Shown here: positions 16,707-40,215 of the stretch, in pieces
Position numbering within the stretch: the first letter of the stretch is position 1
How the letters are laid out: each line of letters opens with the position of its first letter
NCBI GenBank assembly: GCA_041660065.1
Contig: JBAZXC010000001.1
Location: 200,535 to 264,534, forward strand
DNA: 64,000 nucleotides
Origin: Parcubacteria group bacterium
GTDB lineage: Bacteria > Patescibacteriota > Minisyncoccia > Moranbacterales > GCA-2747515
Direction: 5' to 3'
The notes under the pieces: model-generated
Told to the model about the DNA's origin: nothing
Seen by the model: the letters and a program-made list of their open reading frames with translations, nothing else
Databases searched by the model: none
Program-made: the position numbers and the translations under genes

Positions 16707-16735
16707 TTTGACGAAGACGGTAAATTTTGATAGAA
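16707..16735 (+). promoter_or_regulatory. Sigma70-type promoter for secA (TTGACG-17-TAGAAT)
   Basis: Seen directly. 17-bp spacing with TGa at -14. Confidence 0.5.
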
Positions 16736-16789
16736 TTGATGCGTGTTTATTTTGCTGTATGTATGCAGGAAATGAATGGTTATTTTATT

Positions 16790-19453
16790 ATGCAAAAAAA
16801 GAATATGACACTTTTCCAGAAACTATTTGGTTCAAACGAAAAACAATTAAAGAAATTGCAACCGATCATTGATCGGATCAATGCAATGGAGGAAGCGACA
16901 AAAAATTTGTCCGATGAGGGCATTAAAGCCAAAACTGCCGAATTAAAAGCACAATTACGGGATGGAAAAACCTGTGATGACATTTTGCCGGAGGCTTTTG
17001 CGCTTGTGCGCGAGGCATCATATCGCGCGATCGGACAGCGACATTATGATGTACAGCTCTTGGGTGGCATCATCCTTCATGAAGGCAAAATCGCAGAGAT
17101 GAAAACCGGTGAAGGAAAGACTCTCACATCGACATTGCCGATCTATCTCAATGCATTGGAAGGCAAGGGTGTGCATGTAGTGACGGTCAATGATTATCTG
17201 GCAAAACGTGACTGTAATTGGATGGGCGCAGTCTATGAAAAGCTGGGTTTGCAAGCGGCGTGCATCACACATGACGGCGGTTTTTTGTATTATGCAAAAA
17301 CCATTGACACAAATGAAGTGGATATTGAAGTGGAAAATTTGACCGCTGTGTCAAAAAAGGAAGCCTATGACGCGGATATTACATATGGAACGAATAACGA
17401 ATTCGGTTTTGATTATTTGCGCGACAATATGGCGCAGTCCAAAGAGCAATTATCACAGCGTGGACATCATTACGCGATCGTCGATGAGGTGGACTCGATC
17501 CTTATCGATGAAGCGCGTACGCCGCTTATCATCTCGGCACCGGACGCGGAATCAACCAAATTATATGAACAATTTGCCTCTTTCGTCCCACAATTGGTGC
17601 GCGATACGGATTATACGGTGGATGAGAAGTTGCGATCTGTCGCGATCACAGATGCGGGCATCGAAAAAGTGGAGAAGACACTCGGTATCGGCAACATCTA
17701 TGAACAAGGCAAGATCCAATATGTGCATCATTTGGAGCAGTCGCTCAAAGCGGAAACACTTTTTACGCGAGACAAAGATTATATGGTGCGCGATGGCGAG
17801 GTGGTGATCATCGATGAATTTACGGGACGTGCACAAGAGGGACGCCGGTACAGCGATGGATTGCATCAAGCGATCGAAGCAAAGGAACATGTCGAGGTGC
17901 AAAGAGAATCGCGTACACTTGCGACGATCACGTTTCAAAATTATTTCCGTATGTACAAAAAGTTAGCCGGTATGACGGGTACGGCAAATACAAGCGCGGA
18001 GGAATTTCAAAAAGTATACAAACTCGATGTGATCGAGATCCCTACAAACAAAAAAATGATCCGTACGGATCTGCCGGATGTTGTGTACAAAAATGAACGG
18101 GGCAAATTTAACGCGATCGTTGCCAAGATCAAAGAACTCAACGAAAACGGACAACCGGTTCTCGTGGGCACGGTGGCGATCGAAAAATCCGAAGCATTGA
18201 GTCGCGCACTGGAAAAAGCACGTATCTCACACAGTGTGCTCAATGCCAAATTTCATGAAAAAGAAGCCCAGATCATCGCCGATGCGGGACAGAGAGGATC
18301 GGTGACAATTGCAACCAATATGGCGGGACGCGGCACGGATATCAAACTCGGTGACGGTGTGGCGGATCTTGGCGGATTGTATATTATCGGTACGGAACGA
18401 CACGAAGCGCGACGCATCGACAATCAGTTGCGCGGACGCTCCGGTCGCCAAGGAGATGCAGGGACAACACAATTTTACATTTCTCTGGATGATGAATTGA
18501 TGCGACGGTTTGGCGGAGATAAGCTCAAAAGTATCATGGAGAAACTCGGTTTGCCGGAAGATCAACCAATTCAAAACGGCATGATCTCCAAACAGATCGA
18601 GGGAGCACAATCCAAGATCGAGGGATTTAACTTTGATATCCGCAAACACGTATTGGATTATGATAACGTCGTCAACAAACAACGTGAGATCGTTTATGAG
18701 AAACGTCGCAGTACGCTTGAAAGTGCTGATGTAAAGACGCAGATCATGGATCTCTTGCATGAAGAGATCGAAAAGGTGATCAGTATCCATACGACAGGAG
18801 AGCGTTATGCGTGGGAAGTGGAGAATATACGCAAGGATATCGTGGGAATGTTTCCTGTGAATGATGATGGGATCAAAAAAGCGGAAAATATCATCAAGGA
18901 TCACAGCAAGGATGATCGTGAAACAGTGAGTGCGGTCATTGAGCATTTTTTTGCGCTGGCAAAAAACGCATACGGCATGAAAGAAAAGGAAAATGGTGAT
19001 GTAGCAATGCGTGCAATCGAACGATCGATCCTCTTGCGCACGATCGATCAGCATTGGATGAATCATTTGGATGCGATCGATCATTTGAGGCAGGGCATCG
19101 GTCTGCGCGGATATGGACAGCAGGATCCTCTTATCGAATACAAGCGCGAGGCGTTTGATATGTTTTCACAACTTATGGCAAATATTCGCAATACAGTATT
19201 GCATACGATCTTTCGTGCAGTCATTGTGCGTCCGGAAGACAGTGCAATGGCACAAATGGCACAGAGCATGGAGTTTGCCGGTGCAGAAAGCAATCCGGCA
19301 CAATTTGCCGCAGCCGCCGCCCAAGAGGAGAAGAAATTATTGTCCAGTATGCCAAAGATCGAAAAACCGGCACAGAGCGCACATACTGTCGGACGCAATG
19401 ATGATTGCCCATGTGGCAGTGGCAAAAAATATAAGAAATGTCACGGGAAATAA
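16790..19453 (+). CDS. secA: Preprotein translocase ATPase SecA
   Basis: 'MKTGEGKTLTSTLPIYLNAL' (Walker A), 'IVDEVDSILIDEARTPLIIS' (DEAD-like), 'NMAGRGTDIKLGGN', and C-terminal 'CPCGSGKKYKKCHGK' zinc-binding tail. The true start is probably M at 16790 (MQKKNMTLFQKLFG) or 16805; the track ORF begins at 16727. Confidence 0.95.
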   Translation: MQKKNMTLFQKLFGSNEKQLKKLQPIIDRINAMEEATKNLSDEGIKAKTAELKAQLRDGKTCDDILPEAFALVREASYRAIGQRHYDVQLLGGIILHEGKIAEMKTGEGKTLTSTLPIYLNALEGKGVHVVTVNDYLAKRDCNWMGAVYEKLGLQAACITHDGGFLYYAKTIDTNEVDIEVENLTAVSKKEAYDADITYGTNNEFGFDYLRDNMAQSKEQLSQRGHHYAIVDEVDSILIDEARTPLIISAPDAESTKLYEQFASFVPQLVRDTDYTVDEKLRSVAITDAGIEKVEKTLGIGNIYEQGKIQYVHHLEQSLKAETLFTRDKDYMVRDGEVVIIDEFTGRAQEGRRYSDGLHQAIEAKEHVEVQRESRTLATITFQNYFRMYKKLAGMTGTANTSAEEFQKVYKLDVIEIPTNKKMIRTDLPDVVYKNERGKFNAIVAKIKELNENGQPVLVGTVAIEKSEALSRALEKARISHSVLNAKFHEKEAQIIADAGQRGSVTIATNMAGRGTDIKLGDGVADLGGLYIIGTERHEARRIDNQLRGRSGRQGDAGTTQFYISLDDELMRRFGGDKLKSIMEKLGLPEDQPIQNGMISKQIEGAQSKIEGFNFDIRKHVLDYDNVVNKQREIVYEKRRSTLESADVKTQIMDLLHEEIEKVISIHTTGERYAWEVENIRKDIVGMFPVNDDGIKKAENIIKDHSKDDRETVSAVIEHFFALAKNAYGMKEKENGDVAMRAIERSILLRTIDQHWMNHLDAIDHLRQGIGLRGYGQQDPLIEYKREAFDMFSQLMANIRNTVLHTIFRAVIVRPEDSAMAQMAQSMEFAGAESNPAQFAAAAAQEEKKLLSSMPKIEKPAQSAHTVGRNDDCPCGSGKKYKKCHGK

Positions 19454-20159: not shown

Positions 20160-20654
20160 ATGGTCATACGAAAACAATTTCCACGATTCTTGTCACCGTA
20201 TTGTATTGCACTGGAGAAATCTGTCGGTGCGGTGGTTTTCCGCGTCGAAAATGGAGAAAGGCAGTATCTCGTGATCAAATATCGTAATGGGCATTGGGAA
20301 TTTCCACGTGGGCACATCGAAGACGATGAAACAGAGATCGATACAATGCGCAGGGAGATCCTGGAAGAGGTCAATGTGACAGAATTGGAGGTTGTCCCCT
20401 CATTTCGGGAAAATATTCGTTTTTTTTATACGGCGCAAGGACGGGAAAGAAAGGAGCGTTGTGCGCAAAAAAATTGTATCTTTGTGCATAAGAAAGCAAC
20501 ATTTTATCTTGTCGAGGTACAAGCCCTGGATACGATCGCACTTTCGCATGAACATACGGATTTTGTATGGCTGACATTTCCGGAAGCCTATGAAAAACTG
20601 ACATTTGCCAATGCGCGGTCCGTCCTCAAAAAAGCGCATCAACATGTATGTTGA
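20160..20654 (+). CDS. NUDIX hydrolase
   Basis: Nudix box 'GHWEFPRGHIEDDETEIDTMRREILEEVNV' (GX5EX7REUXEEXGU). Confidence 0.8.
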   Translation: MVIRKQFPRFLSPYCIALEKSVGAVVFRVENGERQYLVIKYRNGHWEFPRGHIEDDETEIDTMRREILEEVNVTELEVVPSFRENIRFFYTAQGRERKERCAQKNCIFVHKKATFYLVEVQALDTIALSHEHTDFVWLTFPEAYEKLTFANARSVLKKAHQHVC

Positions 20655-20783: not shown

Positions 20784-22487
20784 ATGTTTAGGAAAAACTT
20801 ACGCAAATTCATCTATGTGATCATTTTTTCAATTGTGATGATCGTGATCGCTTTACCGACAGTAAAATATTTGCCTGAGTCGGTGCAAGGTCGTTTTGAA
20901 AAACTGGCGGTTAATTTGGGATTGGATCTGCAAGGAGGATTGCACTTGGAATACAAACTTGATCTTTCCAATGTGCCTGATGAGAAGAAGGGTGAAGCAA
21001 AGAATGCTGTGCAAGCGGCGGCAGAACGCAAGGTCAACGCGTACGGTGTCGGTGAGCCGATCGTCTGGCTCTCTGAACGTGGTGCGGAAACGTATTTGAT
21101 GGTAGAAATCCCGGGTGTAAAAAATATTGAAGATGTAAAGAATGTTATTCAGAAAGCACCACTCTTGGAATTCAAAGAATCAAAGACCGAGGAAGAAATG
21201 GCAAAAGAAAAAACGGATATGGACGCGGCAATGGCCGAAACACTTGCGCCGATGAACGAGGAAGCGCATCAAAAGGCGATAGGGGCGTTGGAAAGAGCAA
21301 AAAATGGCGAAGACTTTGTCGCGCTAGGAAAGGAATTCAGTCAAAATCCCGATACGGCGACGGGTGAGGAAAATGTGATCGATTTTAAAAAAAGAGCTGA
21401 TCTACCTACAGAACTTGGCGATGCGCTTTTTTCTGATAACCTAAGTGATGGATCGGTCTATCCCAACCTGATCGAAACCGATCAGGGATGGTTTATCATC
21501 AAAAAATTAGAGATGCGCGGTGAAGGTGATGAGCGAGAGGTGAGGGCACAATACATTCCTTTTGGCAAAGTTTCAATACCGGTTGAGCCGTATAAAACAA
21601 CCGGATTGACGGGAGAATTCCTCGAACGTGCAGACGTGAATATGCAAAATACAATGGGTGGCGGTATTTCTGAGCCAGCCGTCCTTTTGACGTTCAATGG
21701 TGAAGGGAAAGATTTGTTTGCAGAGATCACCAAACGCAATCTCGGCAAACCGGTCGCGATCTATCTCGACAATCAGCTCATTTCTGCGCCAACAGTACAA
21801 GCAGAGATCGTGGATGGACGTGCGGAGATCACAGGGAACTTTACCGTTACGGAAGCAAAGGAATTGGCGCGACAACTCACTGAGGGCTCGTTGCCTGTGC
21901 CCTTTGAACTCGTATCACAGCAAAGTGTTGAAGCAACGCTTGGCGCGGAAGCATTGGCAAAGAGTTTGAAAGCGGGCATGTACGGACTCCTCCTTACGAT
22001 GATCTTTATGACGCTATATTATCGTCTCTTTGGCTTGATCGCGGCACTTGCCTTGTGTGTCTATACGGGAACTTTAGTGACGATCTTTAAGTTATCCAGC
22101 TATACACCCTTGTCAATCACACTCACGCTCGCCGGTATTGCCGGTATCACGTTGTCGATTGGTATGGCGGTGGACGCGAACGTCCTCATCTTTGAGCGTA
22201 TTCGCGAAGAATTGCGTTTTGGTAAACCGTTGCGACGTGCCATAGCTGAGGGATTCAAGCGTGCATGGCCGTCAATTCGTGACGGCAATGTGTCCACGAT
22301 CATTACATCGGTGATCCTCATGATGATGGGGACGAGTTTTGTCAAAGGATTTGCGCTCATCCTCATACTTGGTATTGTCGTACACATATTTACAGCAATT
22401 GTTTTGGTGCGTATTGTGCTCACATACATTTCCGGGGATTGGCTATCCAATCATTCTTGGCTCATAATGTCTAATAAGAAGAAATAA
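20784..22487 (+). CDS. secD: Protein translocase subunit SecD, carrying an inserted parvulin-like (degenerate PPIase) domain in the periplasmic head
   Basis: 'LGLDLQGGLHLEYKLD' SecD signature and six C-terminal transmembrane helices. Residues ~155-245 align to PpiC-type parvulins but lack the catalytic His and the GGDLG motif. Confidence 0.88.
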   Translation: MFRKNLRKFIYVIIFSIVMIVIALPTVKYLPESVQGRFEKLAVNLGLDLQGGLHLEYKLDLSNVPDEKKGEAKNAVQAAAERKVNAYGVGEPIVWLSERGAETYLMVEIPGVKNIEDVKNVIQKAPLLEFKESKTEEEMAKEKTDMDAAMAETLAPMNEEAHQKAIGALERAKNGEDFVALGKEFSQNPDTATGEENVIDFKKRADLPTELGDALFSDNLSDGSVYPNLIETDQGWFIIKKLEMRGEGDEREVRAQYIPFGKVSIPVEPYKTTGLTGEFLERADVNMQNTMGGGISEPAVLLTFNGEGKDLFAEITKRNLGKPVAIYLDNQLISAPTVQAEIVDGRAEITGNFTVTEAKELARQLTEGSLPVPFELVSQQSVEATLGAEALAKSLKAGMYGLLLTMIFMTLYYRLFGLIAALALCVYTGTLVTIFKLSSYTPLSITLTLAGIAGITLSIGMAVDANVLIFERIREELRFGKPLRRAIAEGFKRAWPSIRDGNVSTIITSVILMMMGTSFVKGFALILILGIVVHIFTAIVLVRIVLTYISGDWLSNHSWLIMSNKKK

Positions 22488-22491
22488 CTAT

Positions 22492-23421
22492 ATGATCGAT
22501 TTTATTGAAAAAAGAAAATATTTCTACGCTTTTTCCGGCACACTTGCTTTTTTGAGTGTGCTTGCAATTGCACTATGGGGCCTTAAATTAGGTATTGACT
22601 TTGTGGGTGGCACAGAAATGGAGTTTAAGATCGGTGATGATGTGTCGATCACAAAAGATGTTTTGTGTGCCAAAATTGAGGGTGGGTGTGCGAGTGATTT
22701 CACTGTTTTGGAGAGTCAAAGTGAACATGGCAGAAGTATTTTTGTGCGATACAAGAGTTCTGATGAAGTTTTCAATCAAAAGGTGCTTGCCGCAGTCAAA
22801 GAAATTGATTCGACGACTGTACAGCTTAAGTCGGATTTTATCGGCGCAATGGTTTCTACACAATTGAAGTCAAATGCCGCAAAAGCGATCCTTTTTTCGA
22901 TCATTGCGATCCTTTTGTATATCGCATGGGCATTTCGCAAGATCTCAGTGCCGGTATCCTCATGGTATTACGGGATCAGTGCCGTTGTTGCATTGGCACA
23001 TGATATTCTTATCACGATCGGTGTGTTTGCATTTCTCGGGCATTTTTATGACCATGAGATCGGCGTGCCATTTATCGCGGCATTGTTGACGATTCTGGGA
23101 TATAGCATCAATGACACGATCGTGGTGTATGATCGTGTGCGTGAAAATATGCTCAAAACACGTGCCGTATCCAATTTTCATGACATGGTCAACAAATCTC
23201 TCAATGAGACGTTGGCGCGCTCGATCAATACATCAATGACGGTGATCATCGTGCTTATCCCGATGGTGTTGTTTGGCGGGGAGTCGCTGTTTAATTTTTC
23301 ATTGGCACTTCTCATTGGCGTGGCGTTCGGGACATATTCATCGATTTTTGTGGCAACTGCGCTTGTGGTGACGATTTACCACATGCAACAAAAATATCGC
23401 GAGCAGCAAGCGCGAGCGTAG
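22492..23421 (+). CDS. secF: Protein translocase subunit SecF
   Basis: 'GIDFVGGTEMEF' and the 'AHDILITIGVFAFLG' transmembrane core. Position immediately after secD. Confidence 0.9.
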   Translation: MIDFIEKRKYFYAFSGTLAFLSVLAIALWGLKLGIDFVGGTEMEFKIGDDVSITKDVLCAKIEGGCASDFTVLESQSEHGRSIFVRYKSSDEVFNQKVLAAVKEIDSTTVQLKSDFIGAMVSTQLKSNAAKAILFSIIAILLYIAWAFRKISVPVSSWYYGISAVVALAHDILITIGVFAFLGHFYDHEIGVPFIAALLTILGYSINDTIVVYDRVRENMLKTRAVSNFHDMVNKSLNETLARSINTSMTVIIVLIPMVLFGGESLFNFSLALLIGVAFGTYSSIFVATALVVTIYHMQQKYREQQARA

Positions 23422-23456: not shown

Positions 23457-23828
23457 ATGGGTATCACAGATTTTTTCAAAAAAAAGGATAAAAAAAAGAT
23501 CGATCCGATCGAAGCAAAAAAACAAGCAGAAAAGATGCTTGGCGGTAAAATGCCGGAAATCACCGACGCGATGATCGACCAAATGTTGGACGGCTCAATG
23601 CCGGGCGTACCAAAGCTTGGTCCCATGCAAAAAATGGCAATTCGCGGACTCAAGAAGATGTCCCCGGAAAAAAGACAAGAGGTGTTTGCCGAGGCATTTG
23701 GCAAAATGGGTGGCGCTGATGGAGAAAGCAAAGAAGAAATGGCAAAACAGATCGAGGAAATGCGTGCCGCCGGACAACTCAACTCCAAACAATACAAGAT
23801 CGCAAAGAAGCGTTTGGGGATCAAATAA
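23457..23828 (+). CDS. Small Lys/Met-rich hypothetical protein, weakly reminiscent of the Met-rich M-domain of SRP54/Ffh
   Basis: 123 aa with no transmembrane segment. 'GGKMPEITDAMIDQMLDGSMPGVPKLGPMQKMAIRGLKKMSPEKRQ' loosely parallels Ffh 'GQIPDNVKSQMDD...MTMKERA'. Homology is uncertain. Confidence 0.4.
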   Translation: MGITDFFKKKDKKKIDPIEAKKQAEKMLGGKMPEITDAMIDQMLDGSMPGVPKLGPMQKMAIRGLKKMSPEKRQEVFAEAFGKMGGADGESKEEMAKQIEEMRAAGQLNSKQYKIAKKRLGIK

Positions 23829-23865
23829 TTATTTCGTTCCTTCCTTAAACACAAGAGAGGTGTCT

Positions 23866-24300
23866 ATGTTATATCGCATAATGCCGGAGAAGTTCAATCC
23901 AAAGTTAGAAGTTGCAGGCGGCTTTATTGAGTGTGGTGGTGAATTCATTTTATTGCATCGGCAAGATCATAAAGCACAAGGAGATACATGGGGGATCCCA
24001 TCTGGAAAGATTCACGACGGAGAAAATCCGCGTGATGCCGCTTGTCGTGAAACTGCAGAGGAAACTGGCGTGATAATTTCGCGAGACCATATGGGTTATT
24101 TTGCAACAGTGTATGTCAGGTATCCTGATTACGATTTTATTTATCATATATTTCACGCCAAAATAAAAAGAAAGGCTGAGATCGAGATAAATAGAAATGA
24201 ACACAAGGATGCAAAATGGGTCTCACCGCAAGATGCATTGCGCATGCCGTTGATCGGAGATCTTGGTACCTGCATAAAACTTTTTTTTCAAAATACGTAG
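23866..24300 (+). CDS. NUDIX hydrolase (second copy)
   Basis: RBS agagagg-N6-ATG at 23866. Nudix box 'GIPSGKIHDGENPRDAACRETAEETGV'. The track ORF 23617-24300 includes an unlikely N-terminal extension that overlaps the previous gene. Confidence 0.75.
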   Translation: MLYRIMPEKFNPKLEVAGGFIECGGEFILLHRQDHKAQGDTWGIPSGKIHDGENPRDAACRETAEETGVIISRDHMGYFATVYVRYPDYDFIYHIFHAKIKRKAEIEINRNEHKDAKWVSPQDALRMPLIGDLGTCIKLFFQNT

Positions 24301-31996: not shown

Positions 31997-32202
31997 GATG
32001 TCATACCAATCCATTAGTCGTGATTACAGGACTTCTCCGTGTATTTTTCTACGAATTATTTACATATGATGGGATATTTCATAGAGTAGTTTTTGTTTGA
32101 CATGTGACTGATTTTTTGATACAGTGCGCCTATATTAAATAACAAATATCTGTTATATAACATGTTCTTACAACGATCAAAAAACTCAAGGAGATAGAAA
32201 CT

Positions 32203-32841
32203 GTGAAAAAATACTTGTACATCTTGGATTGTGACGGTCCTTTGCGATCGGTATCATGGCAATTGATCTATGATTCTTATATGCCGATCAGCGAACGTTT
32301 TGACATTGATTTTGGTGCACTGTGTCCCGATCTTGTGGCACTCAAGGAATGGTTCGATCATGATTGGAAAAATAATCTCATGCGCATGGGTATTATTACA
32401 GAGAGGGATATGCAAGAGGCAGTGAGAATTTTTCATGACCATTATGATCAAAACACGCACACATTTCCATGGGTTGCAGAGAAAACGGAACAAATGAGTA
32501 TCCATGGACATGTTGCTGTGCTTTCCAATAGCTCAACAGCAAGCATCATGCAATCACTCAATGGTGTCAAAAGACACATTGCTATGATTGCCGGCCATGA
32601 TTCTGTCCCACGATCAAAACCGCACCCTGATGGTATTCACCAAATCATTGACGCGTTGAATGCAGATCCTGCATACGCAGTTATGATTGGAGATACCAAT
32701 GCCGATATTGATGCAGGCAAAAAGGCGGGTATACGCACTGTCGCCGTATCGTGGGGACTCAGTGATACACCGGAAGCATTGCGCGCTCTTGGAGCGGATC
32801 AGATCATAACTAATCCAGAAGAGTTTTTGTCACTATGGTGA
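32203..32841 (+). CDS. HAD-superfamily hydrolase (phosphoglycolate-phosphatase-like). GTG start.
   Basis: Motif I 'LYILDCDGPL', motif II 'AVLSNS', motif III/IV 'K...GDTNADIDAGKKAG'. RBS aaggag. Terminator at 32851-32892. Confidence 0.75.
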   Translation: MKKYLYILDCDGPLRSVSWQLIYDSYMPISERFDIDFGALCPDLVALKEWFDHDWKNNLMRMGIITERDMQEAVRIFHDHYDQNTHTFPWVAEKTEQMSIHGHVAVLSNSSTASIMQSLNGVKRHIAMIAGHDSVPRSKPHPDGIHQIIDALNADPAYAVMIGDTNADIDAGKKAGIRTVAVSWGLSDTPEALRALGADQIITNPEEFLSLW

Positions 32842-33036
32842 TTGATCTTTTTTGAAAAACGTCCAGTTGGTTAAATACCGATTGGACGTTTTTATTTCTT
32901 TATGACAGTGTGGAATTACAAAAGAGGGAAGGGATCGTGAAATTTTCTTCAAAAATGGTGTCTACCATGATGTGATCACCTTCGGCCTCCTGCAACGAGA
33001 ATATCTGAAGAAATAATTATTTCACATTTAAAAAAA

Positions 33037-33076
33037 GACCTGTGAGTGAAACATTCGCAGGTCTTTTCTTTTTTGT
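33037..33076. terminator. Bidirectional hairpin terminator
   Basis: aaaaaaagacctgtgagtgaaacattcgcaggtcttttctttttt, with a T/A run on both sides. Confidence 0.6.
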
Positions 33077-33112
33077 CATTCACTATGCACAGGGAAGAGA
33101 TCTTTCAATTCC

Positions 33113-33466
33113 CTAGTTTACTTTACGAAAACTCACTGTGTATATCGGTTCATATAATGCATCATACTCATCGCGCACCTCCACGGTTTCCCCATCCATC
33201 ATCGTCGAGAGGGAAATGTCAGAGATCATTTCTTGTAATGCCTTTACTTCGCCTTTTAATTCCTCCATGCGTTCCCATCGTGAACCCATGTCACGCTGTG
33301 CACTGAGCTCATGCTGTTTTTTGATCTCTCTGATGTCATTTGCTTTCTCAAGAACTGTTTGGTATTCGGCATCTTGTGCGAGGACATCTTTGAATTCTTT
33401 ACGGATTTCCTTCATTTCTTTTTTGATGCTCTGAAATTCACTGAATACTTCTTGGACATCTTTCAT
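33113..33466 (-). CDS. Hypothetical coiled-coil protein (117 aa)
   Basis: Highly charged heptad-like sequence (KEMKEIRKEFKDVLAQDAEYQTVLEKANDIREIKKQHE...). Has its own minus-strand promoter TTGTCA-17-TAGAAT. Confidence 0.45.
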   Translation of the reverse strand: MKDVQEVFSEFQSIKKEMKEIRKEFKDVLAQDAEYQTVLEKANDIREIKKQHELSAQRDMGSRWERMEELKGEVKALQEMISDISLSTMMDGETVEVRDEYDALYEPIYTVSFRKVN

Positions 33467-33624
33467 GATATTTTTTGTTTAATTGATTAGTATAAAACAG
33501 AGCTAATTCTATCATAAATTTCACAAATTGACAAAATGTTACTTTTGTACTATAATAGGCGCTACAGTATAAATTTCCCGTTCTTTTCTTATCTTAATTT
33601 TTGCCAAAAAGGAGAGCAAAATTT

Positions 33625-34110
33625 ATGAAAAAAATCAGCGTAGTATCATTTCTTGTTTTGATGTTTTTCTTTTTTTTGAAAGCATCATCCAGCTTCGCCG
33701 TGCAAGAGATCGTTTCCACATGCAAGGACGGCAATTTGTCTGTGTATGTAACATATCCCGTAATTGACACCGTTGGTCCGGGGTTTGGTTCGCAAGCTGT
33801 GGATCGCCCACAACAGCTAGGCACTGTTGTACGTCATGCATGTTATGATCCGGCAGAAAAACGAATCACAGCATGGCGTCAAGGCAAATACGGCGTTCAC
33901 GCACATTATGGCGGGGATGAAGAGGAGCTACCGGAGATTCTCTCCGCGAAGTATGGCATCAATGCCAAGAAAGATCACATTGTTTTTGAAACAAAAACAG
34001 TGATCAGTCTCCCGGAAGGGAAGGTGGTCTCTTCGGAAGACCTCCAACTCTATTATTTTGAAAAAGAAAACAAGAACAAGATCAAGATAATAGCACTTAC
34101 AATACGCTAA
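33625..34110 (+). CDS. Hypothetical secreted protein
   Basis: RBS aaaaggagag. Signal peptide MKKISVVSFLVLMFFFFLKASSSFA. Terminator aactgttcggttcacaatgtgatcgaacagtt at ~34128-34175. The track ORF starts at 33601. Confidence 0.5.
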   Translation: MKKISVVSFLVLMFFFFLKASSSFAVQEIVSTCKDGNLSVYVTYPVIDTVGPGFGSQAVDRPQQLGTVVRHACYDPAEKRITAWRQGKYGVHAHYGGDEEELPEILSAKYGINAKKDHIVFETKTVISLPEGKVVSSEDLQLYYFEKENKNKIKIIALTIR

Positions 34111-34175
34111 AAATTTTTTTTTGCATAAAACTGTTCGGTTCACAATGTGATCGAACAGTTTTTCTTTTTTCAAAT

Positions 34176-35377
34176 TTCTTGGTGGCACAGTCACCAGACA
34201 GACTTTATGTCGCACAATGTAGAGCATCTATTTTGGATTTGTAGAAGGGAATTTCTATGTGTGATGTGTAAAAATTTTCGTGTCAGTAATTTATTATGAG
34301 AAAATTATCTTTCTGCTATGCAAATAATATCCTCTTGTCTTTTTATTTTTAGATTTTTTTATAATTTATATTTATAAAATAATTTTACAAATATAAAATA
34401 TTCACGCATGTAAGTAAATAATAATATTTATTATAATGCACGGGATAAAAATATTATTGGAAAAATTTAGCATGAAGAAAAAAGCAAAGATTAGGCCGGA
34501 GAGATTCAATATGTGTTATTCTATGTAAAATAGCATATAAACATACAATATATAGATATAATAGATAGTATAAATATGATTACATACCGCATGGTGTGCT
34601 TTACTGGAATCTCCCGTGGTATGTACATATCACTCGCTCTATGTCGCACAATGAAGAGTCAGCTTTTTGCGAGAGGAGAGGAGTGATATTGGATTATAAA
34701 CAATGCAGGACATACAATATCATATGCCTATAGATTATATAGACATGATGGGTGCATGATTTCGGTCATGATAACCATCGACCTGCGAGATCTTTCAAAA
34801 CCATATAGTATACTTATGGTAAAAATATATGAAATCAAGAGCGGATAGTTATAATCAAGGAGGTTTTGTAAATTTGTTGTATGGAAAGAGAATAGTATGA
34901 TCATTAGCGTAATGATGGCATCATAGCTTTGATGTGTGCGATTTTAATATAATAAAGGAAACTAGTAACATTGATACGAATATGATGCTATGTCGCATAA
35001 TATACATTGTGCGACGTAGTATATAGAAAGACCCTATTTGGACAATCCTCCTCCAATACCTCAGTGAACGATCAGACTTTGTAATATTTTTTATAAAAGA
35101 TTTATTTATGCAGATTTCCTCACTCTTTCTCTGCCTCTGCGGTGTGATGAACATCATAAAACAAAAAGGAGATTATTATCCCCCTACCGCATGCAATTTA
35201 TTTTAGACAATGTATTTATTGCATGCGTTATGATGTTTTACTTTTCAAAAGAGTTTGTTGTGTGGTTGTCTTTTTTTGTTATAGTACATTTTTGATTCAA
35301 AAGAGTATACATATCATACCCATTAATTAATTTAAAACTCCCCTTCCCTTCAAAAAAGTTATCCACAGTTGTCAAAT
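34176..35377. other. 1.2-kb AT-rich non-coding island with iterated GTCGCACAATG motif and one perfect DnaA box
   Basis: No ORF >80 codons with coding character. Motif TATGTCGCACAATG at 34205-34218 and 34640-34653, and an imperfect palindromic pair at 34989-35015. TTATCCACA at 35359-35367. Confidence 0.6.
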
Positions 35378-35426
35378 ATCAAAAACCGTCAAAGGGTCAT
35401 GACGGTTTTTTGGTGAAATTTTTTGG

Positions 35427-36146
35427 TCAGTTATTTTTGATCAATGTTCCTTCAAATTTTTCTCCGTTAAGATATGCGCGTATATTATCAAAATTTGTCC
35501 CCTTTAATGTCACCGCTTCCAAATCTTCCTTTTCTGCAAATTTTGCTGCGACAGGATCAAATGGTGCATTCATGCCAGGTATCCAGACGTCGGTTGTCAT
35601 TTCGCGATATTGTGCCCAAGACATCTCCTCGATCTTTTGGGCATCAGGAAATTCCTTGGGGTCTTTATCATAGACATAATCAATGTTGGAAAGGTTAACA
35701 ACTTTTTTGATCCCGAGATATCGTGCAAGAAGAGCGGAATCATAATCTGTGGAAAATCCCGGCTTCCATCCTGCGGCGATCATGACCGATTGGGTACATT
35801 GATGAAAGTCTTCCAGATCATGGGGATTGGTATTGATACGCGGATGTGCCACATCGCGAAATATTGTGCGAATGAGATGGGCGTTTAAACGTGTGGAATG
35901 AATGCCCAACCAATCCTTATCTTCGTCGTTCACATCTTGCAATATCTCTTGTGCCGCTTGCGCATAGCGACGTGCCGTCTTGCCTCCTCCGGTGATAAAA
36001 ACAAAACGTTGCTGTTGTTCGGTAATTTGCTGCATAATCAGAGCGCGAAAGTCTTTCAAAAATTCTATATTGATATCATCAGGAACGATCAAAGATCCGC
36101 CAAGGTTCACAATAAAGGTTTTTTTTGCATCCATATTTTTTTGCAT
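35427..36146 (-). CDS. pyrH: UMP kinase, archaeal-type (amino-acid-kinase family)
   Basis: 'KKTFIVNLGGSLIVPDD', 'FVFITGGGKTARRY', 'HSTRLNAHL', 'AGWKPGFSTDYDSALLA' closely parallel archaeal-type UMPK. In-frame ATGs at 36146 or 36134. The longer track ORF (to 36350) overlaps the upstream gene and is unlikely to be translated. Confidence 0.75.
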   Translation of the reverse strand: MQKNMDAKKTFIVNLGGSLIVPDDINIEFLKDFRALIMQQITEQQQRFVFITGGGKTARRYAQAAQEILQDVNDEDKDWLGIHSTRLNAHLIRTIFRDVAHPRINTNPHDLEDFHQCTQSVMIAAGWKPGFSTDYDSALLARYLGIKKVVNLSNIDYVYDKDPKEFPDAQKIEEMSWAQYREMTTDVWIPGMNAPFDPVAAKFAEKEDLEAVTLKGTNFDNIRAYLNGEKFEGTLIKNN

Positions 36147-36180
36147 TATTTTATTATTTTTTATAAATTTTGTGTCATTA

Positions 36181-36573
36181 TTATTTGCATGAGGTTGACT
36201 TGGTGTATCCTTTTTCAATAGCATTTTGATCGGAACGGAAACACCGCAGATTCTCGGGGTCGATCTTTGTAGCATAGGAACAATCCGGCGGATAATATTT
36301 TGTACCCTTGACACTTCCGACATAGACACAATCTTCGGGGCGCATGGCATTTGTTGAATCAGAGGAGTTTTTTTTCACAATGATCGGGTCTTGTGTGGCA
36401 CGGAAAACCGTTATGGGCCGTTGAGCTGTTTGTGCTCCGGTAAACCACCCGAAAACATAGCACAATAAACCAACGACAACCATACCACTTATTGTCATAA
36501 TAGCACTTTCATGGTCAAAAAACCATGTGCGGATCTTTTGGAGATATTTTCTCATAATCATTGACAATCTCAA
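36181..36573 (-). CDS. Hypothetical membrane-anchored protein with a C-terminal Cys-containing domain
   Basis: Transmembrane segment (IMTISGMVVVGLLCYVFGWF), then 'CVYVGSVKGTKYYPPDCSYATKIDPENLRCFRSDQNAIEKGY...C'. Co-oriented with and upstream of pyrH. Confidence 0.45.
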   Translation of the reverse strand: MRLSMIMRKYLQKIRTWFFDHESAIMTISGMVVVGLLCYVFGWFTGAQTAQRPITVFRATQDPIIVKKNSSDSTNAMRPEDCVYVGSVKGTKYYPPDCSYATKIDPENLRCFRSDQNAIEKGYTKSTSCK

Positions 36574-36656
36574 CCTTCTCGATTATACTAGCATAGTATA
36601 TAAATTTGTAAAAGACGGGAAATTCCCTTTTACTTTTAATCGTATAATATTCAATT

Positions 36657-36935
36657 ATGGCACATAGAAAAGCCGGCGGTTCCACAAGACTTGGCCGTGA
36701 TTCAGAATCTAAACGTCTTGGAGTAAAGATCTATGGCTCACAAAAAGTTAGTGCGGGCAATGTGATCGTGCGTCAACGTGGCACAAAAATTCATCCGGGA
36801 GAAAACGTTGCCCGTGGTGAAGATGATACTATTTATGCAAAGAAATCCGGCATAGTTAAATTCATCGACAAAAAAGTTAAGGATTTTACCGGAAAACTCA
36901 AAAAGAGAAAATTCGTCAGTGTTGTGACAAAATAG
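36657..36935 (+). CDS. rpmA: 50S ribosomal protein L27
   Basis: '[24 protein letters not shown]...[16 protein letters not shown]' is nearly identical in pattern to bacterial L27. Terminator at 36957-36989. Confidence 0.95.
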
Positions 36936-36986
36936 TAACGATCAAAATCTTTCAAAAATACCCTGCCGGAATTGGCAGGGTATTTT

Positions 36987-38486
36987 TTATTTGGGTGTTA
37001 TTTTTTTGATACGAGAACGAATGGCACCTTCTTGTCGTCCAAATATCTTCGCAATCGTTTTGATACTTTGGTGTTTTTTGATACATGCTAAAAGTCTCTT
37101 ATCATCTTCCGGTTTCCATGGTTTACCTGCGTGAGGATACATATTTTGTGAATTTTGATGTGATTTTTTCTCTGATGAAGATGTGATTTTTTTATCCGGT
37201 TTCGCATGTATTAAAACTTTTTTCTTTTTCATCTCTTCCTGTTCAAGGGTGGCAGAAATATTTTGAAAAACATGGTCTTTTTTGAAAATGGTAGGATCGA
37301 CTTGCAGAGCAATATCATTTATACCCAAGAGCGTAATATCTCGTAATGTGCGTACACGAGAAAGAGCTACATAACCCATACCGTACTCAAAACACTTTTT
37401 CAGGTCAATCTCTGCAGCATCAAGCGTCATACCTTGGCTTTTGTGTATTGTGATCGCCCATGCTAAGCGTAGAGGCAGTTGTTTGATTTGTGCTAGTTCC
37501 TCGCCATCTTCTTCAATGAGCCATTTTTCCGGGGAGACCCTGATCTCTTCTCCGTGTAAAGTTTTTACAATCGGAAAACGATCCTCATCAAAATCAATGA
37601 CTGTGCCAATCGTACCATTGACATATCCTTGATCGAAATTATTGCGCACAAACATCACAAGTGCGCCTTTTTTGAGAATGAGCTCTTCCGGAGCGAGGCA
37701 TCCATTTTTGATCGCCTCGACTAATTTTTCATTACCATCCGATACCATCCGATACAAAAAGGACTTTTCTTTGATTTTATGCAATTCGTGATTATTTACC
37801 CTATCAACATCAATATTGTGCGTAAAAAGTTTCGTGCGTTCTTGGGCGCTATCTATTTTTTGATTAGTGGCTTTTTTGAGCAAAAGGTGTGTTTTTTCTG
37901 TTACACACTTCCCTCTTATATCAGACAAGACACGCGAGAGAGCATCTTCTTTTTGTCGATATTGCTCTGATAAGTAACAAACTTTTAAATCCATTTCTTT
38001 CCAGCTCTGTGATTGATCGATGAATTGTACGGTCGTCCCGGCGTTTTTTCGTACAGGAGGCAATTGAAAAAAATCACCAGACAAAATGATCTGCATGCCT
38101 CCGAATGATTTTACATTTTCCCGTGCACTGCGTAAGATTTTATTGATCAGATCGATCTGGTACGCATGTAGCATGGAAATCTCATCAATGATGAGCACGT
38201 CAGTCTTTGTGAGACGCTTGTGCACAAGGGGATTTCTGATGATCTTTTTTATTTCTTTTTCGCTCAGATCTTCTTTTATGCCAATGCCCGACCATGAGTG
38301 GATCGTACGACCACCAATATGTGTTGCGGCAATACCTGTAGAAGCTGTAACGGCATAGGAAATGCGGTTTTGTTTTAAATAACCAATGTATGCATTAAGC
38401 AAAAATGTTTTGCCACTGCCTGCCGGTCCAGTTAAAAAGACATTATGCCCTCTTTTCAATATATTCAATGCAAGATCCTGTTTCAT
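36987..38486 (-). CDS. Pif1/RecD-family (SF1B) DNA helicase with C-terminal HTH-like tail
   Basis: Walker A 'FLTGPAGSGKTFLL', 'VLIIDEISML', 'LSGDFFQLPPV', and 'AITIHKSQGMTLD' (UvrD_C_2-like). C-terminal basic helix 'SIKTIAKIFGRQEGAIRSRIKKI'. Confidence 0.75.
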   Translation of the reverse strand: MKQDLALNILKRGHNVFLTGPAGSGKTFLLNAYIGYLKQNRISYAVTASTGIAATHIGGRTIHSWSGIGIKEDLSEKEIKKIIRNPLVHKRLTKTDVLIIDEISMLHAYQIDLINKILRSARENVKSFGGMQIILSGDFFQLPPVRKNAGTTVQFIDQSQSWKEMDLKVCYLSEQYRQKEDALSRVLSDIRGKCVTEKTHLLLKKATNQKIDSAQERTKLFTHNIDVDRVNNHELHKIKEKSFLYRMVSDGNEKLVEAIKNGCLAPEELILKKGALVMFVRNNFDQGYVNGTIGTVIDFDEDRFPIVKTLHGEEIRVSPEKWLIEEDGEELAQIKQLPLRLAWAITIHKSQGMTLDAAEIDLKKCFEYGMGYVALSRVRTLRDITLLGINDIALQVDPTIFKKDHVFQNISATLEQEEMKKKKVLIHAKPDKKITSSSEKKSHQNSQNMYPHAGKPWKPEDDKRLLACIKKHQSIKTIAKIFGRQEGAIRSRIKKITPK

Positions 38487-38568
38487 ATAATGTAAAAATG
38501 CGGGCAGTAGTGGTGCAATGGCAAAAACCCTGTGTCATTATCGAATGCATACCCTTTTTAATTGACGT

Positions 38569-40215
38569 TTATTTTTTATTTTTTGCTGCTTTGACGAAAG
38601 CCATGAAAAGCGGATGTGGTCGTAATGGTGCGGATTGAAATTCCGGATGGAATTGCGTAGCAACAAAAAACGGATGTACAGACTGGGGCAGTTCCATGAT
38701 CTCCATAAGGATCCCATCTGGTGATGTAGCAGGAAAAATAATTCCTGCATCGATCAATCGTGGGACATACGCAGGATTTACCTCATAGCGATGTCGGTGT
38801 CTTTCACTGATCTCTTTGGATTTGTATGCTCTGTATGCGATTGTGGATTTATTTTTGATGATCGCAGGATATGCACCGAGTCGATTAGAGCCACCAAAAT
38901 CTTTTTTGAGAAGTTTTTTCTTTTGTTCAGGCATAATATCGATCACGAGATCTTTTGCTTGAGGATTGATCTCTGCCGTATGAGCATCCTTCAGTCCAAG
39001 AACGTGGCGTGCATATTCGATCACTGCGATCTGCATGCCATAACACAATCCAAAATAAGGGATTTTATTCTCACGACAATACTGTGCAACGCTGATCTTC
39101 CCTTCTATGCCACGCGAGCCATAGCCACCAGGCACAACGATGCCATCATAATTTTTGAGTTGCTGAAGAAGTTCCGGGGTTTTTTCATATGCGGTACTGT
39201 CGAGCCACGCCAATTCCGGTTTGCAACCATTGTGGATGGCTGCATGCTTGATCGCTTCAATTACACTGATATAGGCGTCAGAAAGCACAAAATCACCGGT
39301 TTCAAAATACTTGCCCACAATGCCGATTTTTACAGGTTTTTTTGCACTTTCGATTTTTTGTACAAATGTGTTCCATTCCTTCATATCCGTTTTGCGCGGT
39401 GTGAGGCCGAGTTTTTTCAAAACGATGCTACTGAGATTATCTTTTTCAAAATTGATCGGCACATGATAAATACTTTCAACATCCGGCGCACTGATCACAC
39501 TTTTTTTATCCACGCTACAACTCATGGCGATCTTTTCTTTTCGTTTGTCATCAAGTGGCACTTCAGATCGTGCTACGATGATATCCGGTTGGATGCCGGC
39601 ACCATTCAAAGTGCGTGCTGCGTATTGAGTTGGTTTTGTCTTCATCTCCCCAACCTTGCTTGGTAGCGGGACATAACTTACCAACACAAAAAGAACATCG
39701 CGAGGATATTTCAGTTTCATCATGCGTGCCGCTTCCAGGAACAAAATATTTTGATATTCACCAATCGTACCGCCAATTTCCGTGATAATGATTTCGGCAT
39801 TTTCCCTTTTGGCTGCTTTTTCTATGCGGTCAATGATCTCTAATGGAATATGCGGTACAACCTCAACACATTTGCCGTGATAGTCGCCACGACGCTCACG
39901 TTCAATCACGGACTGATATACACGCCCTGTGGTCATATAGTTGGTACGAGGTAAAGATATGCCCAAAAAACGTTCATAATTCCCCATATCTTGATCGGTT
40001 TCATCACCATCTGCAAGTACAAATACCTCGCCATGCTCTGTGGGATTCATTGTCCCGGCATCAACATTGATATAGGGATCAACCTTTAGTGCTGTCACCG
40101 AAAAACCACGTGATTGCACGATTTTGGCGATTGAAGATGCTGTGATTCCTTTCCCTACGCCACTCATTACACCGCCTACGACAAAAATATATTTCTTTCT
40201 ATTTTTTTTCTTCAT
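38569..40215 (-). CDS. pyrG: CTP synthase
   Basis: 'YIFVVGGVMSGVGKGITASSIAKI', 'TALKVDPYINVDAGTMNPTEHGEVFV', and the glutamine amidotransferase domain 'GLCYGMQIAVIEYAR'. Start taken at MKKKNRKKYIF; the track ORF extends to 40335. Confidence 0.92.
   Translation of the reverse strand: MKKKNRKKYIFVVGGVMSGVGKGITASSIAKIVQSRGFSVTALKVDPYINVDAGTMNPTEHGEVFVLADGDETDQDMGNYERFLGISLPRTNYMTTGRVYQSVIERERRGDYHGKCVEVVPHIPLEIIDRIEKAAKRENAEIIITEIGGTIGEYQNILFLEAARMMKLKYPRDVLFVLVSYVPLPSKVGEMKTKPTQYAARTLNGAGIQPDIIVARSEVPLDDKRKEKIAMSCSVDKKSVISAPDVESIYHVPINFEKDNLSSIVLKKLGLTPRKTDMKEWNTFVQKIESAKKPVKIGIVGKYFETGDFVLSDAYISVIEAIKHAAIHNGCKPELAWLDSTAYEKTPELLQQLKNYDGIVVPGGYGSRGIEGKISVAQYCRENKIPYFGLCYGMQIAVIEYARHVLGLKDAHTAEINPQAKDLVIDIMPEQKKKLLKKDFGGSNRLGAYPAIIKNKSTIAYRAYKSKEISERHRHRYEVNPAYVPRLIDAGIIFPATSPDGILMEIMELPQSVHPFFVATQFHPEFQSAPLRPHPLFMAFVKAAKNKK

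What the first reader, a model, noticed from the sequence alone, without database searches (positions are those of the whole stretch)
21246..21519. SecD with an embedded, catalytically degenerate parvulin-type PPIase-like domain
SecD residues ~155-245 (ERAKNGEDFVALGKEFSQNPDTATGEENVIDFKKRADLPTELGDALFS...NLIETDQGWFIIKK) align along their length to PpiC/PrsA/SurA parvulin domains (EQIKNGADFGKLAKKHS...GGDLGEF...MVPAFDKVVFS...FGYHIIKV). The insert lacks the catalytic His residues (W replaces H in the final strand) and lacks the GGDLG motif. It sits in the periplasmic P1 head of SecD, between the PLLEF segment and the TGLTG motif. A translocon subunit carrying its own foldase/chaperone-like module would couple export to folding, and may compensate for the absence of PrsA/SurA in a minimal genome. 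I am not aware of this fusion being described.
Basis: partly seen in the sequence, partly recalled or inferred. Interest (0 to 1): 0.6.

Follow-up and report, generated by a model that had tools for sequence, protein, structure and literature searches.

The report
SecD carrying a built-in, inactivated parvulin domain
The protein-export subunit SecD of this Moranbacteria-type (candidate phyla radiation) bacterium has a parvulin foldase domain spliced into its outward-facing head; most relatives keep that domain's active site, this lineage has lost it yet still conserves the domain, which points to a chaperone physically wired to the export machine.

Summary
SecD (20784-22487, 567 aa) has about 128 extra residues (135-262) between the SecD_1st segment and the P1 head. 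These residues hit Pfam Rotamase and Rotamase_3 above gathering score, and the canonical P1 head is matched separately at 271-372. The insert is lineage-wide: all 120 listed homologues carry it, as do up to 244 GTDB species genomes, nearly all labelled Moranbacteria/Patescibacteria. In 93 of 105 aligned homologues the parvulin signature is intact (Asp, GGDL, both His). The window's clade has lost it: N188, E196-I199, F237 and Y257. The hydrophobic pocket remains, and dN/dS of the insert is 0.076, the same as the rest of SecD, so the domain is maintained. New here: the His-bearing beta1 strand lies after beta4, which suggests a circular permutation. Support comes from colinear alignment to SurA P1-linker-P2 beta1, Pfam score gains on re-permuted constructs, joint loss of both His in three clades, and related SecDs with two parvulin units. 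The most likely role is a non-catalytic substrate-holding module. The PrsA/SurA compensation idea was not tested. I found no paper describing the fusion.

The parts
20784..22487 (+). secD coding sequence (567 aa plus stop)
   Evidence: ORF. TIGR01129 secD scores 349.7 bits against a cutoff of 244.4. It is 100% identical to P0001, named 'protein translocase subunit SecD [Parcubacteria group bacterium]'. Foldseek of the AF2 model hits SecDF structures 5yhf and 3aqp.
21024..21185 (+). P1 base, N-terminal part (SecD_1st, residues 81-134). It ends in the PLLEFKES strand that precedes the insertion.
   Evidence: Pfam PF21760, 35 bits. It aligns to T. thermophilus SecDF up to residue 119. AF2 predicts a strand at 128-133.
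21186..21230 (+). Acidic linker helix at the start of the insertion (residues 135-149)
   Evidence: AF2 predicts a helix at 136-149 with block pLDDT of 80-84. It has no counterpart in T. thermophilus SecDF. Its length varies among homologues.
21231..21518 (+). Parvulin core from alpha1 to beta4 (residues 150-245). Degenerate sites are N188, E196-N197-V198-I199, Q234 and F237. Retained sites are L207, L211, T232 and W236.
   Evidence: Pfam Rotamase and Rotamase_3 score above gathering. There is a PrsA alignment. AF2 predicts H151-173, H178-184, E198-203, H209-215, E230-232 and E235-245, with pLDDT of about 90.
21519..21569 (+). Loop RGEGDE plus the strand EVRAQYIPFGK (residues 246-262). This is the inferred permuted beta1 strand. 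Y257 sits where the family has His and P259 where it has Leu.
   Evidence: The family consensus is EVxxxHILFxK. It aligns colinearly with the SurA P1-P2 linker and the P2 beta1 strand EVHARHILLK. Moving it to the N-terminus of the core adds 10-11 bits on Rotamase_3 in canonical members. Its His is lost together with the beta4 His. AF2 predicts a strand at 252-261 with pLDDT of about 96.
21594..21899 (+). Canonical P1 head subdomain (residues 271-372), starting just before the TGLTG motif
   Evidence: Pfam PF22599 scores 95.8 bits over profile positions 17-114. It aligns to T. thermophilus SecDF from residue 164.
21903..22427 (+). SecD transmembrane domain (residues 374-548)
   Evidence: Pfam PF02355. 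AF2 predicts long helices at 384-549.
22492..23421 (+). secF, 4 nt downstream of secD (partner subunit)
   Evidence: ORF. The equivalent gene in the P0002 locus carries PF02355.
16727..19453 (+). secA upstream on the same strand (context only). The listed TTG start is probably too far upstream.
   Evidence: ORF translation shows SecA motifs and the C-terminal CPCGSGKKYKKCHG zinc finger. This was read by eye and not scanned.

Best explanation
The gene is a genuine SecD. Its external P1 domain carries, at the junction between base and head, a linker helix plus a parvulin-type domain. The insertion is an old trait of Moranbacteria-type Patescibacteria. In most members the parvulin has every active-site signature and is probably a working prolyl isomerase or foldase riding on the mobile, substrate-capturing P1 head of SecDF. 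The domain order is most likely circularly permuted: alpha1-alpha2-beta2-alpha4-beta3-beta4, then a short loop, then the His-bearing beta1 strand. It looks like an internal fragment of a tandem-parvulin (SurA-like) protein. In the window's lineage the polar catalytic set is replaced (His to Y257, His to F237, Asp to N188, GGDL to EENVI), while the hydrophobic proline-pocket positions stay hydrophobic (I199, L207, L211). The domain also remains under the same purifying selection as the rest of SecD. I therefore infer that it now works as a non-catalytic binding or holdase module, like the inactive parvulin domains of PpiD and SurA-P1. It would hold unfolded polypeptide as it leaves SecYEG and is pulled by the proton-driven P1 head. 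Shown: the architecture, homology, distribution, residue replacements and selection. Inferred: the permutation topology (no coordinates were available), loss of catalysis, and the chaperone role.
For: Distribution: all 120 listed homologues (50-100% identity, named Moranbacteria, Parcubacteria or Patescibacteria) carry the insert, 114 of them with a precomputed PF00639 hit. In the genome scan, 244 GTDB species genomes matched the insert plus its flanks. Family consensus keeps D, GGDL, FGWHIIKK and HILF. Of 105 aligned homologues, 93 have the beta4 His and 92 of those have the second His; all 12 without the first also lack the second. These 12 fall in three separate clades on a neighbour-joining tree of non-insert residues. 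Among GTDB loci, 74 of 76 are His/His. Selection: window against P0002 gives dN/dS of 0.076 for the insert (dS 0.65), 0.049 for the rest of P1 and 0.077 for the TM domain. Permutation evidence is fourfold. First, the profile aligns colinearly to SurA 171-276, which covers P1 alpha1 to beta4, the linker and P2 beta1. Second, in P0049 and P0061 Rotamase_3 scores 92.7 and 87.4 bits for the core alone. With the true trailing strand moved to the front it scores 103.8 and 97.3 bits, and the profile match extends to position 13-15. With the reversed strand it scores 95.0 and 88.5, and with the LLEFKE flank 92.9 and 91.4. Third, related Patescibacteria SecDs of 650-705 aa have two units, and there the inter-unit strand is read by Pfam as position 1 of a full-length parvulin. 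Fourth, AF2 of the insert (pLDDT 86.7, pTM 0.73) predicts a confident beta4-loop-strand hairpin and no strand before alpha1 other than the SecD LLEFKE strand. Functional analogy: parvulin chaperones associate non-covalently with the Sec machinery, namely PpiD-YfgM with SecYEG (PMC9643414), SurA with the Sec holotranslocon (PMC9987972) and Mpn444 cross-linked to SecD (bioRxiv 10.1101/2024.09.05.611430).
Against: No 3-D coordinates could be inspected, so the placement of the trailing strand in the beta1 slot is not directly shown. Read naively, the DSSP strand limits (235-245 and 252-261) would place residue 237 opposite 260 rather than 257, so the register is unresolved. Foldseek of the insert model hit only one PPIase (8hm3_B, E 8e-5) and no single-domain parvulin. 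The gain on PF00639 in the permutation test was small (+4 to +5 bits against up to +3.6 in controls). Loss of catalysis is inferred from residues alone. From my own knowledge (Bailey et al., Biochemistry 2008), Pin1 double-His mutants keep some function, so joint His loss could be a structural swap rather than inactivation. The insert also evolves faster than the rest of SecD over longer distances (68% against 89% identity to P0003), which suggests somewhat relaxed constraint.
Confidence: 0.65

Rival explanations
1. The window's domain is still a working prolyl isomerase. Under this view the paired His-to-Tyr/Phe changes are a structurally compensated swap, and catalysis proceeds with the remaining pocket.
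For: The hydrophobic pocket positions are retained (I199, L207, L211), as are T232 and W236. There is strong purifying selection. Both His are always replaced together, and mostly by hydrophobic residues. From my own knowledge, Pin1 dual-His mutants remain partly functional.
Against: The Asp or Cys position is N188, the invariant Gly of GGDL is N197, and the S154 position (Phe or Tyr in canonical members) is Q234. The Pfam score drops from about 90 bits in canonical members to about 32 bits. P259 replaces Leu in the beta1-like strand.
Confidence: 0.15
2. The insert is a purely structural add-on that tunes P1-head movement or contacts another envelope component, with no direct binding of translocating substrates.
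For: It sits at the base-head hinge strand. It is conserved and under selection without catalytic residues. From my own knowledge, PpiD's isolated parvulin domain has no chaperone activity.
Against: Most family members keep a complete active-site signature, which implies substrate contact at this position in the ancestor. The hydrophobic pocket is retained in the query.
Confidence: 0.15
3. The insert is a decaying relic of a formerly active domain with no remaining function.
For: Motifs are lost, and the insert diverges faster than the rest of SecD (68% against 89% identity to P0003).
Against: dN/dS of the insert is 0.076 at dS 0.65, the same as the flanking SecD regions. There are no frameshifts or deletions, and the length is preserved across the degenerate clades. 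AF2 confidence is about 90.
Confidence: 0.04
4. The similarity is chance, or the segment is simply the canonical P1 head, or the gene is an assembly chimera.
For: None beyond the weak single-sequence E-value against PDB (0.0026).
Against: Pfam scores are above gathering. The family profile scores E 1.7e-20 against SurA. The P1 head is matched separately at 271-372. The same architecture occurs in hundreds of independent assemblies.
Confidence: 0.01

Closest known systems
SecDF of Thermus thermophilus and Deinococcus radiodurans (PDB 3AQP, 5YHF, 5XAN)
   Same: It shares the same family and domain order: TM1, P1 base, P1 head, then a 5-helix TM bundle. Foldseek gives E 5e-20 and phmmer 8e-62. 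SecF is adjacent.
   Different: The query has about 105-128 extra residues, a linker helix plus a parvulin, right after the LEF(K/R) strand where the base joins the head. SecD and SecF are separate genes here.
E. coli PpiD (membrane-anchored periplasmic chaperone at SecYEG, with an inactive parvulin domain)
   Same: It is a parvulin-fold module without PPIase signature held at the exit of the Sec translocon. PpiD-YfgM associates with SecYEG and promotes translocation (PMC9643414). The PpiD parvulin 2KGJ is hit by the insert profile (E 1.3e-6).
   Different: PpiD is a separate protein with its own TM anchor and SurA-like chaperone domains. Here only the parvulin unit is present, it is covalently inside SecD, and it is apparently permuted.
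E. coli SurA (tandem parvulins: P1 inactive, P2 active)
   Same: It is the best PDB sequence match (E 1.7e-20). The insert aligns colinearly with P1 alpha1-beta4, the linker and P2 beta1. SurA P1 is a non-catalytic, peptide-binding parvulin. SurA has been reported to contact the Sec machinery (PMC9987972).
   Different: There is no N- or C-terminal chaperone domain. The NCBIfam SurA model scores 12.7 bits against a cutoff of 394. The organism is a Patescibacterium, which I expect has no outer membrane (my own knowledge, not tested).
PrsA of Bacillus subtilis and Mpn444/Mpn436 of Mycoplasma pneumoniae (lipoprotein foldases of monoderms)
   Same: They are extracytoplasmic parvulin foldases acting on proteins leaving the Sec channel. 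PrsA is the best single-sequence hit (4wo7). Mpn444 cross-links to SecD (bioRxiv 10.1101/2024.09.05.611430).
   Different: Those are separate lipoproteins with NC chaperone domains and intact active sites. The NCBIfam PrsA-type model scores 15 bits against a cutoff of 360.
Two-parvulin SecD variants in other Patescibacteria (for example P0149, P0173 and P0222/P0275; 650-705 aa)
   Same: They have the same insertion site and the same flanks. A trailing beta1-like strand precedes the P1 head.
   Different: They carry a degenerate first unit plus a complete canonical second unit. The window's SecD has a single, degenerate unit.

Membership tests
SecD (protein translocase subunit, TIGR01129 / Pfam SecD_1st + SecDF_P1_head + SecD_SecF_C) | The curated equivalog model scores above its cutoff | tested here: met
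   TIGR01129 scores 349.7 bits against a cutoff of 244.4.
SecD (protein translocase subunit, TIGR01129 / Pfam SecD_1st + SecDF_P1_head + SecD_SecF_C) | An N-terminal TM helix, then the periplasmic P1 base and head, then the C-terminal TM bundle, with the fold matching solved SecDF | tested here: met
   Pfam domains are in the expected order. Foldseek hits 5yhf (E 4.9e-20) and 3aqp (E 1.1e-16).
SecD (protein translocase subunit, TIGR01129 / Pfam SecD_1st + SecDF_P1_head + SecD_SecF_C) | A partner secF gene is adjacent | tested here: met
   An ORF at 22492-23421 lies 4 nt downstream. The orthologous neighbour carries PF02355.
Parvulin / PpiC-type PPIase domain (Pfam PF00639, PF13616) | The sequence matches the family model above the gathering score | tested here: met
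   PF00639 scores 31.9 against 21.7, and PF13616 scores 28.5 against 22.5. Canonical homologues score 75-95 bits.
Parvulin / PpiC-type PPIase domain (Pfam PF00639, PF13616) | The beta-alpha3-beta-alpha-beta2 fold with the beta1 (His) strand first in the chain | tested here: not met
   Pfam matches start at profile position 15 or 32, so there is no N-terminal beta1. The beta1-like strand follows beta4. AF2 element order is H-H-E-H-E-E-E. The evidence favours a permuted order, but the 3-D placement was not verified.
Parvulin / PpiC-type PPIase domain (Pfam PF00639, PF13616) | The predicted structure superposes on solved parvulins | tested here: inconclusive
Parvulin / PpiC-type PPIase domain (Pfam PF00639, PF13616) | Active-site residues: the dual His, the Cys/Asp and the GGDLG loop | tested here: not met
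   The query has Y257, F237, N188 and E196-N197-V198-I199. Canonical homologues have His 92 of 93 and 93 of 93, Asp 93 of 93 and the loop Gly 93 of 93.
Parvulin / PpiC-type PPIase domain (Pfam PF00639, PF13616) | Peptidyl-prolyl cis-trans isomerase activity | not testable with these tools
   This needs an enzyme assay.
SurA / PpiD / PrsA chaperone families | Flanking N- and C-terminal chaperone domains, and the curated family model above its cutoff | tested here: not met
   The NCBIfam PrsA-type model PRK02998 scores 15 against 360, SurA scores 12.7 against 394 and PpiC scores 14.4 against 127. Only the parvulin unit is present, so it may work like these proteins but is not a member.

The most novel reading that the evidence does not exclude
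Patescibacterial SecD carries a circularly permuted parvulin that acts in cis on the polypeptide being pulled out by the proton-driven P1 head. It would be a foldase in most Moranbacteria and a holdase in the window's lineage. This would be a natural 'Rosetta-stone' fusion showing that parvulin chaperones (PpiD, SurA, PrsA, Mpn444) do their job docked at the SecD P1 head. It would also be the first permuted parvulin fold.
Probability: 0.35. Interest if true: 0.7.

Novelty: new variant of a known kind. Interest (0 to 1): 0.5.

Why it matters
How exported proteins are handed from the Sec channel to folding factors is still worked out case by case, as with PpiD-YfgM, SurA-holotranslocon, PrsA and Mpn444-SecD. 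A lineage in which the parvulin is covalently built into the SecD P1 head gives independent evolutionary evidence for where such chaperones act. It also offers a compact model system, a single P1 domain, for studying how translocation is coupled to folding. The family contains natural active-looking and inactivated versions at the same site, which is a ready-made comparison of foldase and holdase roles. The apparent circular permutation, together with one- and two-unit variants, is a clear example of domain evolution by tandem duplication and truncation. For annotation, these genes are currently named simply 'SecD'.

Tried and rejected
1. I tested whether the segment is just the canonical P1 head. 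It is not: the head is matched separately at 271-372, and T. thermophilus lacks about 105 residues here.

2. I tested whether the SecD strand LLEFKE could serve as the parvulin beta1. Attaching it to the core raised Rotamase_3 by only 0.2-4 bits, against 10-11 bits for the trailing strand. I judged this unlikely, but it is not excluded structurally.

4. Model coordinates are not exposed to run_python, so no contact or register analysis could be done.

5. Foldseek with the insert model returned only one significant PPIase hit.

6. I searched for a stand-alone parvulin in the window with an HMM built from the insert and with phmmer using Pin1 and Par10. I found none in 546 six-frame ORFs. The remaining ~400 kb of the source contig could not be fetched, so the 'compensates for missing PrsA/SurA' idea stays untested.

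7. Five literature searches found no description of the fusion or of a permuted parvulin. The term pairs were SecD+parvulin, SecD/PPIase domain/Patescibacteria, circularly permuted+parvulin, SecDF+rotamase and Moranbacteria+peptidyl-prolyl.

8. Assembly chimera is rejected because of the number of independent assemblies that carry the architecture.
Full report
**What is at the coordinates**

The finding (21246-21519) lies inside a 567-aa ORF at 20784-22487 on the + strand. A 309-aa ORF follows 4 nt later (22492-23421), and a SecA-like ORF precedes it (16727-19453). NCBIfam identifies the 567-aa protein as SecD: TIGR01129 scores 349.7 bits against a cutoff of 244.4. Pfam places the domains as follows:

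| Domain | Residues | Score |
|---|---|---|
| SecD_1st | 81-134 | 35 bits |
| Rotamase (PF00639) | 158-240 | 31.9 bits, gathering 21.7, E 2.8e-7 |
| Rotamase_3 (PF13616) | 157-243 | 28.5 bits, gathering 22.5 |
| SecDF_P1_head | 271-372 | 95.8 bits |
| SecD_SecF_C | 374-548 | 52 bits |

So the parvulin hit is significant and the canonical P1 head is a separate, intact element downstream. Against T. thermophilus SecDF, the alignment breaks after the LEFRIVK strand (residue 119, matching query 134). It resumes at residue 164 (matching query 284), so the query has about 105 additional residues at the base-head junction.

**How widespread it is**

The protein is 100% identical to a database entry named SecD of a 'Parcubacteria group bacterium' MAG, on a 469-kb contig. 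All 120 listed homologues (50-93% identity, named Moranbacteria, Moraniibacteriota or Patescibacteria where a name exists) have the same length class. Most carry precomputed PF00639 and PF13616 hits. I scanned one genome per GTDB species with an alignment of the insert plus its SecD flanks. That scan found 244 genomes encoding a relative. The 80 retained loci are almost all labelled Moranbacteria or Patescibacteria. Some third-party assemblies are labelled 'uncultured Bdellovibrionales' or 'Micavibrio', and I take these to be mislabels of the same clade. The insertion is therefore a lineage trait, not an assembly artefact.

**The family is mostly canonical and the window is the exception**

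In an alignment of 105 homologues the consensus of the insert is ...GEDFxxLAKEFSQDPGSKDxGGDLDF...FVPEFDxVLF...ETxFGWHIIKKxExRGEGDxxEVxxxHILFxK. I mapped sites to Pin1 and E. coli Par10. My recalled sequences reproduced the PDB scores exactly, 26.3 and 44.4 bits. The mapping is in the table below.

| Pin1 position | Query residue | 93 canonical homologues |
|---|---|---|
| H59 | Y257 | H in 92 |
| C113 (Asp in PrsA) | N188 | D in 93 |
| G120-D121-L122 | N197-V198-I199 | G in 93, L in 87 |
| M130 | L207 | F, Y or L |
| F134 | L211 | F in 87 |
| T152 | T232 | T or S |
| S154 | Q234 | F or Y |
| I156 | W236 | W in 92 |
| H157 | F237 | H in 93 |

Twelve of the 105 sequences lack the beta4 His, and all twelve also lack the second His. 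On a neighbour-joining tree of non-insert residues they form three separate clades. The tree has no support values, so this means at least two and perhaps three independent events. Among 76 GTDB loci scored, 74 are His/His and one is degenerate; that one is the window's nearest relative.

**The degenerate domain is still maintained**

I compared the window gene with the 93%-identical P0002 gene (fetched) using Nei-Gojobori estimates.

| Region | dN/dS |
|---|---|
| Insert, residues 135-262 (dS 0.65) | 0.076 |
| Rest of P1 | 0.049 |
| TM domain | 0.077 |

There are no indels, and AF2 confidence in the insert is 80-96. Over longer distances the insert diverges faster than the rest (68% against 89% identity to P0003). 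That suggests some relaxation, but not decay.

**Apparent circular permutation**

Pfam matches to the insert never include the N-terminal beta1 strand; they start at profile position 15 or 32. Instead, a His-bearing strand that resembles parvulin beta1 (EVxxxHILFxK) follows beta4 after a conserved RGEGD loop. Four observations support reading this as the beta1 strand moved to the C-terminal side.

- **Colinear alignment to SurA.** The insert profile aligns colinearly with E. coli SurA residues 171-276. That span covers P1 alpha1 through beta4, the inter-domain linker, and the beta1 strand of P2 (EVHARHILLK). Many tandem-parvulin proteins in the 1.84-billion-protein library align in the same way.
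- **Score gains on re-permuted constructs.** For two canonical members, moving the trailing strand in front of the core raises Rotamase_3 and extends the match to profile position 13-15. Controls gain far less. The gain on PF00639 is smaller (+4 to +5 bits). The degenerate query shows no gain.

| Construct | Rotamase_3, P0049 (bits) | Rotamase_3, P0061 (bits) |
|---|---|---|
| Core alone | 92.7 | 87.4 |
| True trailing strand moved to the front | 103.8 | 97.3 |
| Reversed strand attached | 95.0 | 88.5 |
| LLEFKE flank attached | 92.9 | 91.4 |

- **Joint loss of both His.** The two His positions are kept or lost together, as expected for the parvulin dual-His pair.
- **Two-unit variants.** Other Patescibacteria SecDs of 650-705 aa carry two units at the same site. 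The first unit is degenerate and has no N-terminal beta1. It is followed by a complete canonical parvulin whose beta1, read by Pfam as profile position 1, is the inter-unit strand. After that comes another trailing beta1-like strand and then the P1 head. One cluster member is named SecD of a Patescibacteria bacterium.

AF2 of residues 121-289 (pLDDT 86.7, pTM 0.73) predicts helix, helix, helix, strand, helix, short strand, a long beta4 and then a confident hairpin strand at 252-261. The only strand before alpha1 is SecD's own LLEFKE.

**Mechanism**

From established knowledge, SecDF uses the proton gradient to swing its P1 head between two forms, and the head captures the emerging unfolded chain (Tsukazaki et al. 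2011; Furukawa et al. 2017; structures 3AQP, 5XAN and 5YHF matched). A parvulin inserted at the strand that links base and head would ride next to that substrate-binding surface.

For most Moranbacteria the intact signature suggests a cis-acting prolyl isomerase or foldase. For the window's lineage the polar catalytic residues are replaced, the hydrophobic pocket is retained and purifying selection persists. This points to a binding or holdase role, as in the catalytically inactive parvulin domains of PpiD and SurA-P1.

Non-covalent counterparts of this arrangement are documented. PpiD-YfgM acts at SecYEG (PMC9643414). SurA contacts the Sec holotranslocon (PMC9987972). Mpn444 is a parvulin lipoprotein that cross-links to SecD in Mycoplasma (bioRxiv 10.1101/2024.09.05.611430).

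Three alternatives remain:
- Residual PPIase activity. From my own knowledge, Pin1 dual-His mutants keep partial function.
- A purely structural role in head motion.
- A decaying relic, which is disfavoured by dN/dS.

**What was not settled**

Whether the fusion compensates for a missing PrsA/SurA is untested. No other parvulin-like ORF exists in the 64-kb window, but the rest of the genome was out of reach. Whether the insertion occurs outside Patescibacteria was not examined.

**Comparison and novelty**

The protein is a member of the SecD family. Its insert is a homologue of parvulins by sequence, but it fails two parvulin-defining features: the canonical strand order and the catalytic residues. 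It is not a member of the SurA, PpiD or PrsA families, because it has no chaperone domains and the curated models score far below cutoff. It probably works like their inactive parvulin modules.

Five full-text searches found no description of a SecD-parvulin fusion or of a permuted parvulin. The domain combination is, however, already visible in precomputed Pfam annotations.

I rate it a new variant of a known kind and give it moderate interest (0.5). It is a tidy, testable natural fusion with an unexpected topology. It is not a new principle.

Noticed in passing
window 32000-40000: GC skew changes sign from positive to negative here, with cumulative skew peaking at about 35-37 kb. Long ORFs switch from the + strand (up to about 34.1 kb) to the - strand (from about 35.4 kb). 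This convergent pattern is what a replication terminus region would show.
   Followed up: partly
P0149, P0156, P0159, P0173, P0213, P0220, P0222 (proteins): Other Patescibacteria SecDs of 650-705 aa carry two parvulin units at the same insertion site. The first unit is degenerate. The second is complete and canonical, and a further beta1-like strand follows it before the P1 head. The direction of evolution, one unit to two or two to one, is unknown.
   Followed up: partly
L001, L005, L007, L009 and many other loci: Third-party MAG assemblies labelled 'Micavibrio sp.' or 'uncultured Bdellovibrionales' encode the same Moranbacteria-type SecD with the parvulin insert. L001 is the GTDB locus closest to the window (70% identity over the insert region). 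These taxonomic labels are probably wrong.
   Followed up: no
window 20160-20654 (+) and 23617-24300 (+): NUDIX hydrolase genes flank secDF on both sides. The upstream one is confirmed as PF00293 in the orthologous locus. The downstream ORF shows a NUDIX box (GKIHDGENPRDAACRETAEETGV) by eye only.
   Followed up: no
window 23457-23828 (+): A 123-aa lysine- and glutamate-rich ORF lies directly after secF. The same-length gene occupies the same position in the P0002 locus and has no Pfam hit. Its function is unknown.
   Followed up: no
window 16727-16810 (+): The mechanically listed SecA ORF starts at a TTG and has an odd 26-residue leader (MIELMRVYFAVCMQEMNGYFIMQKKN). The real start is probably the ATG at about 16805 (MTLFQKLFGS...). 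This was judged by eye only.
   Followed up: no
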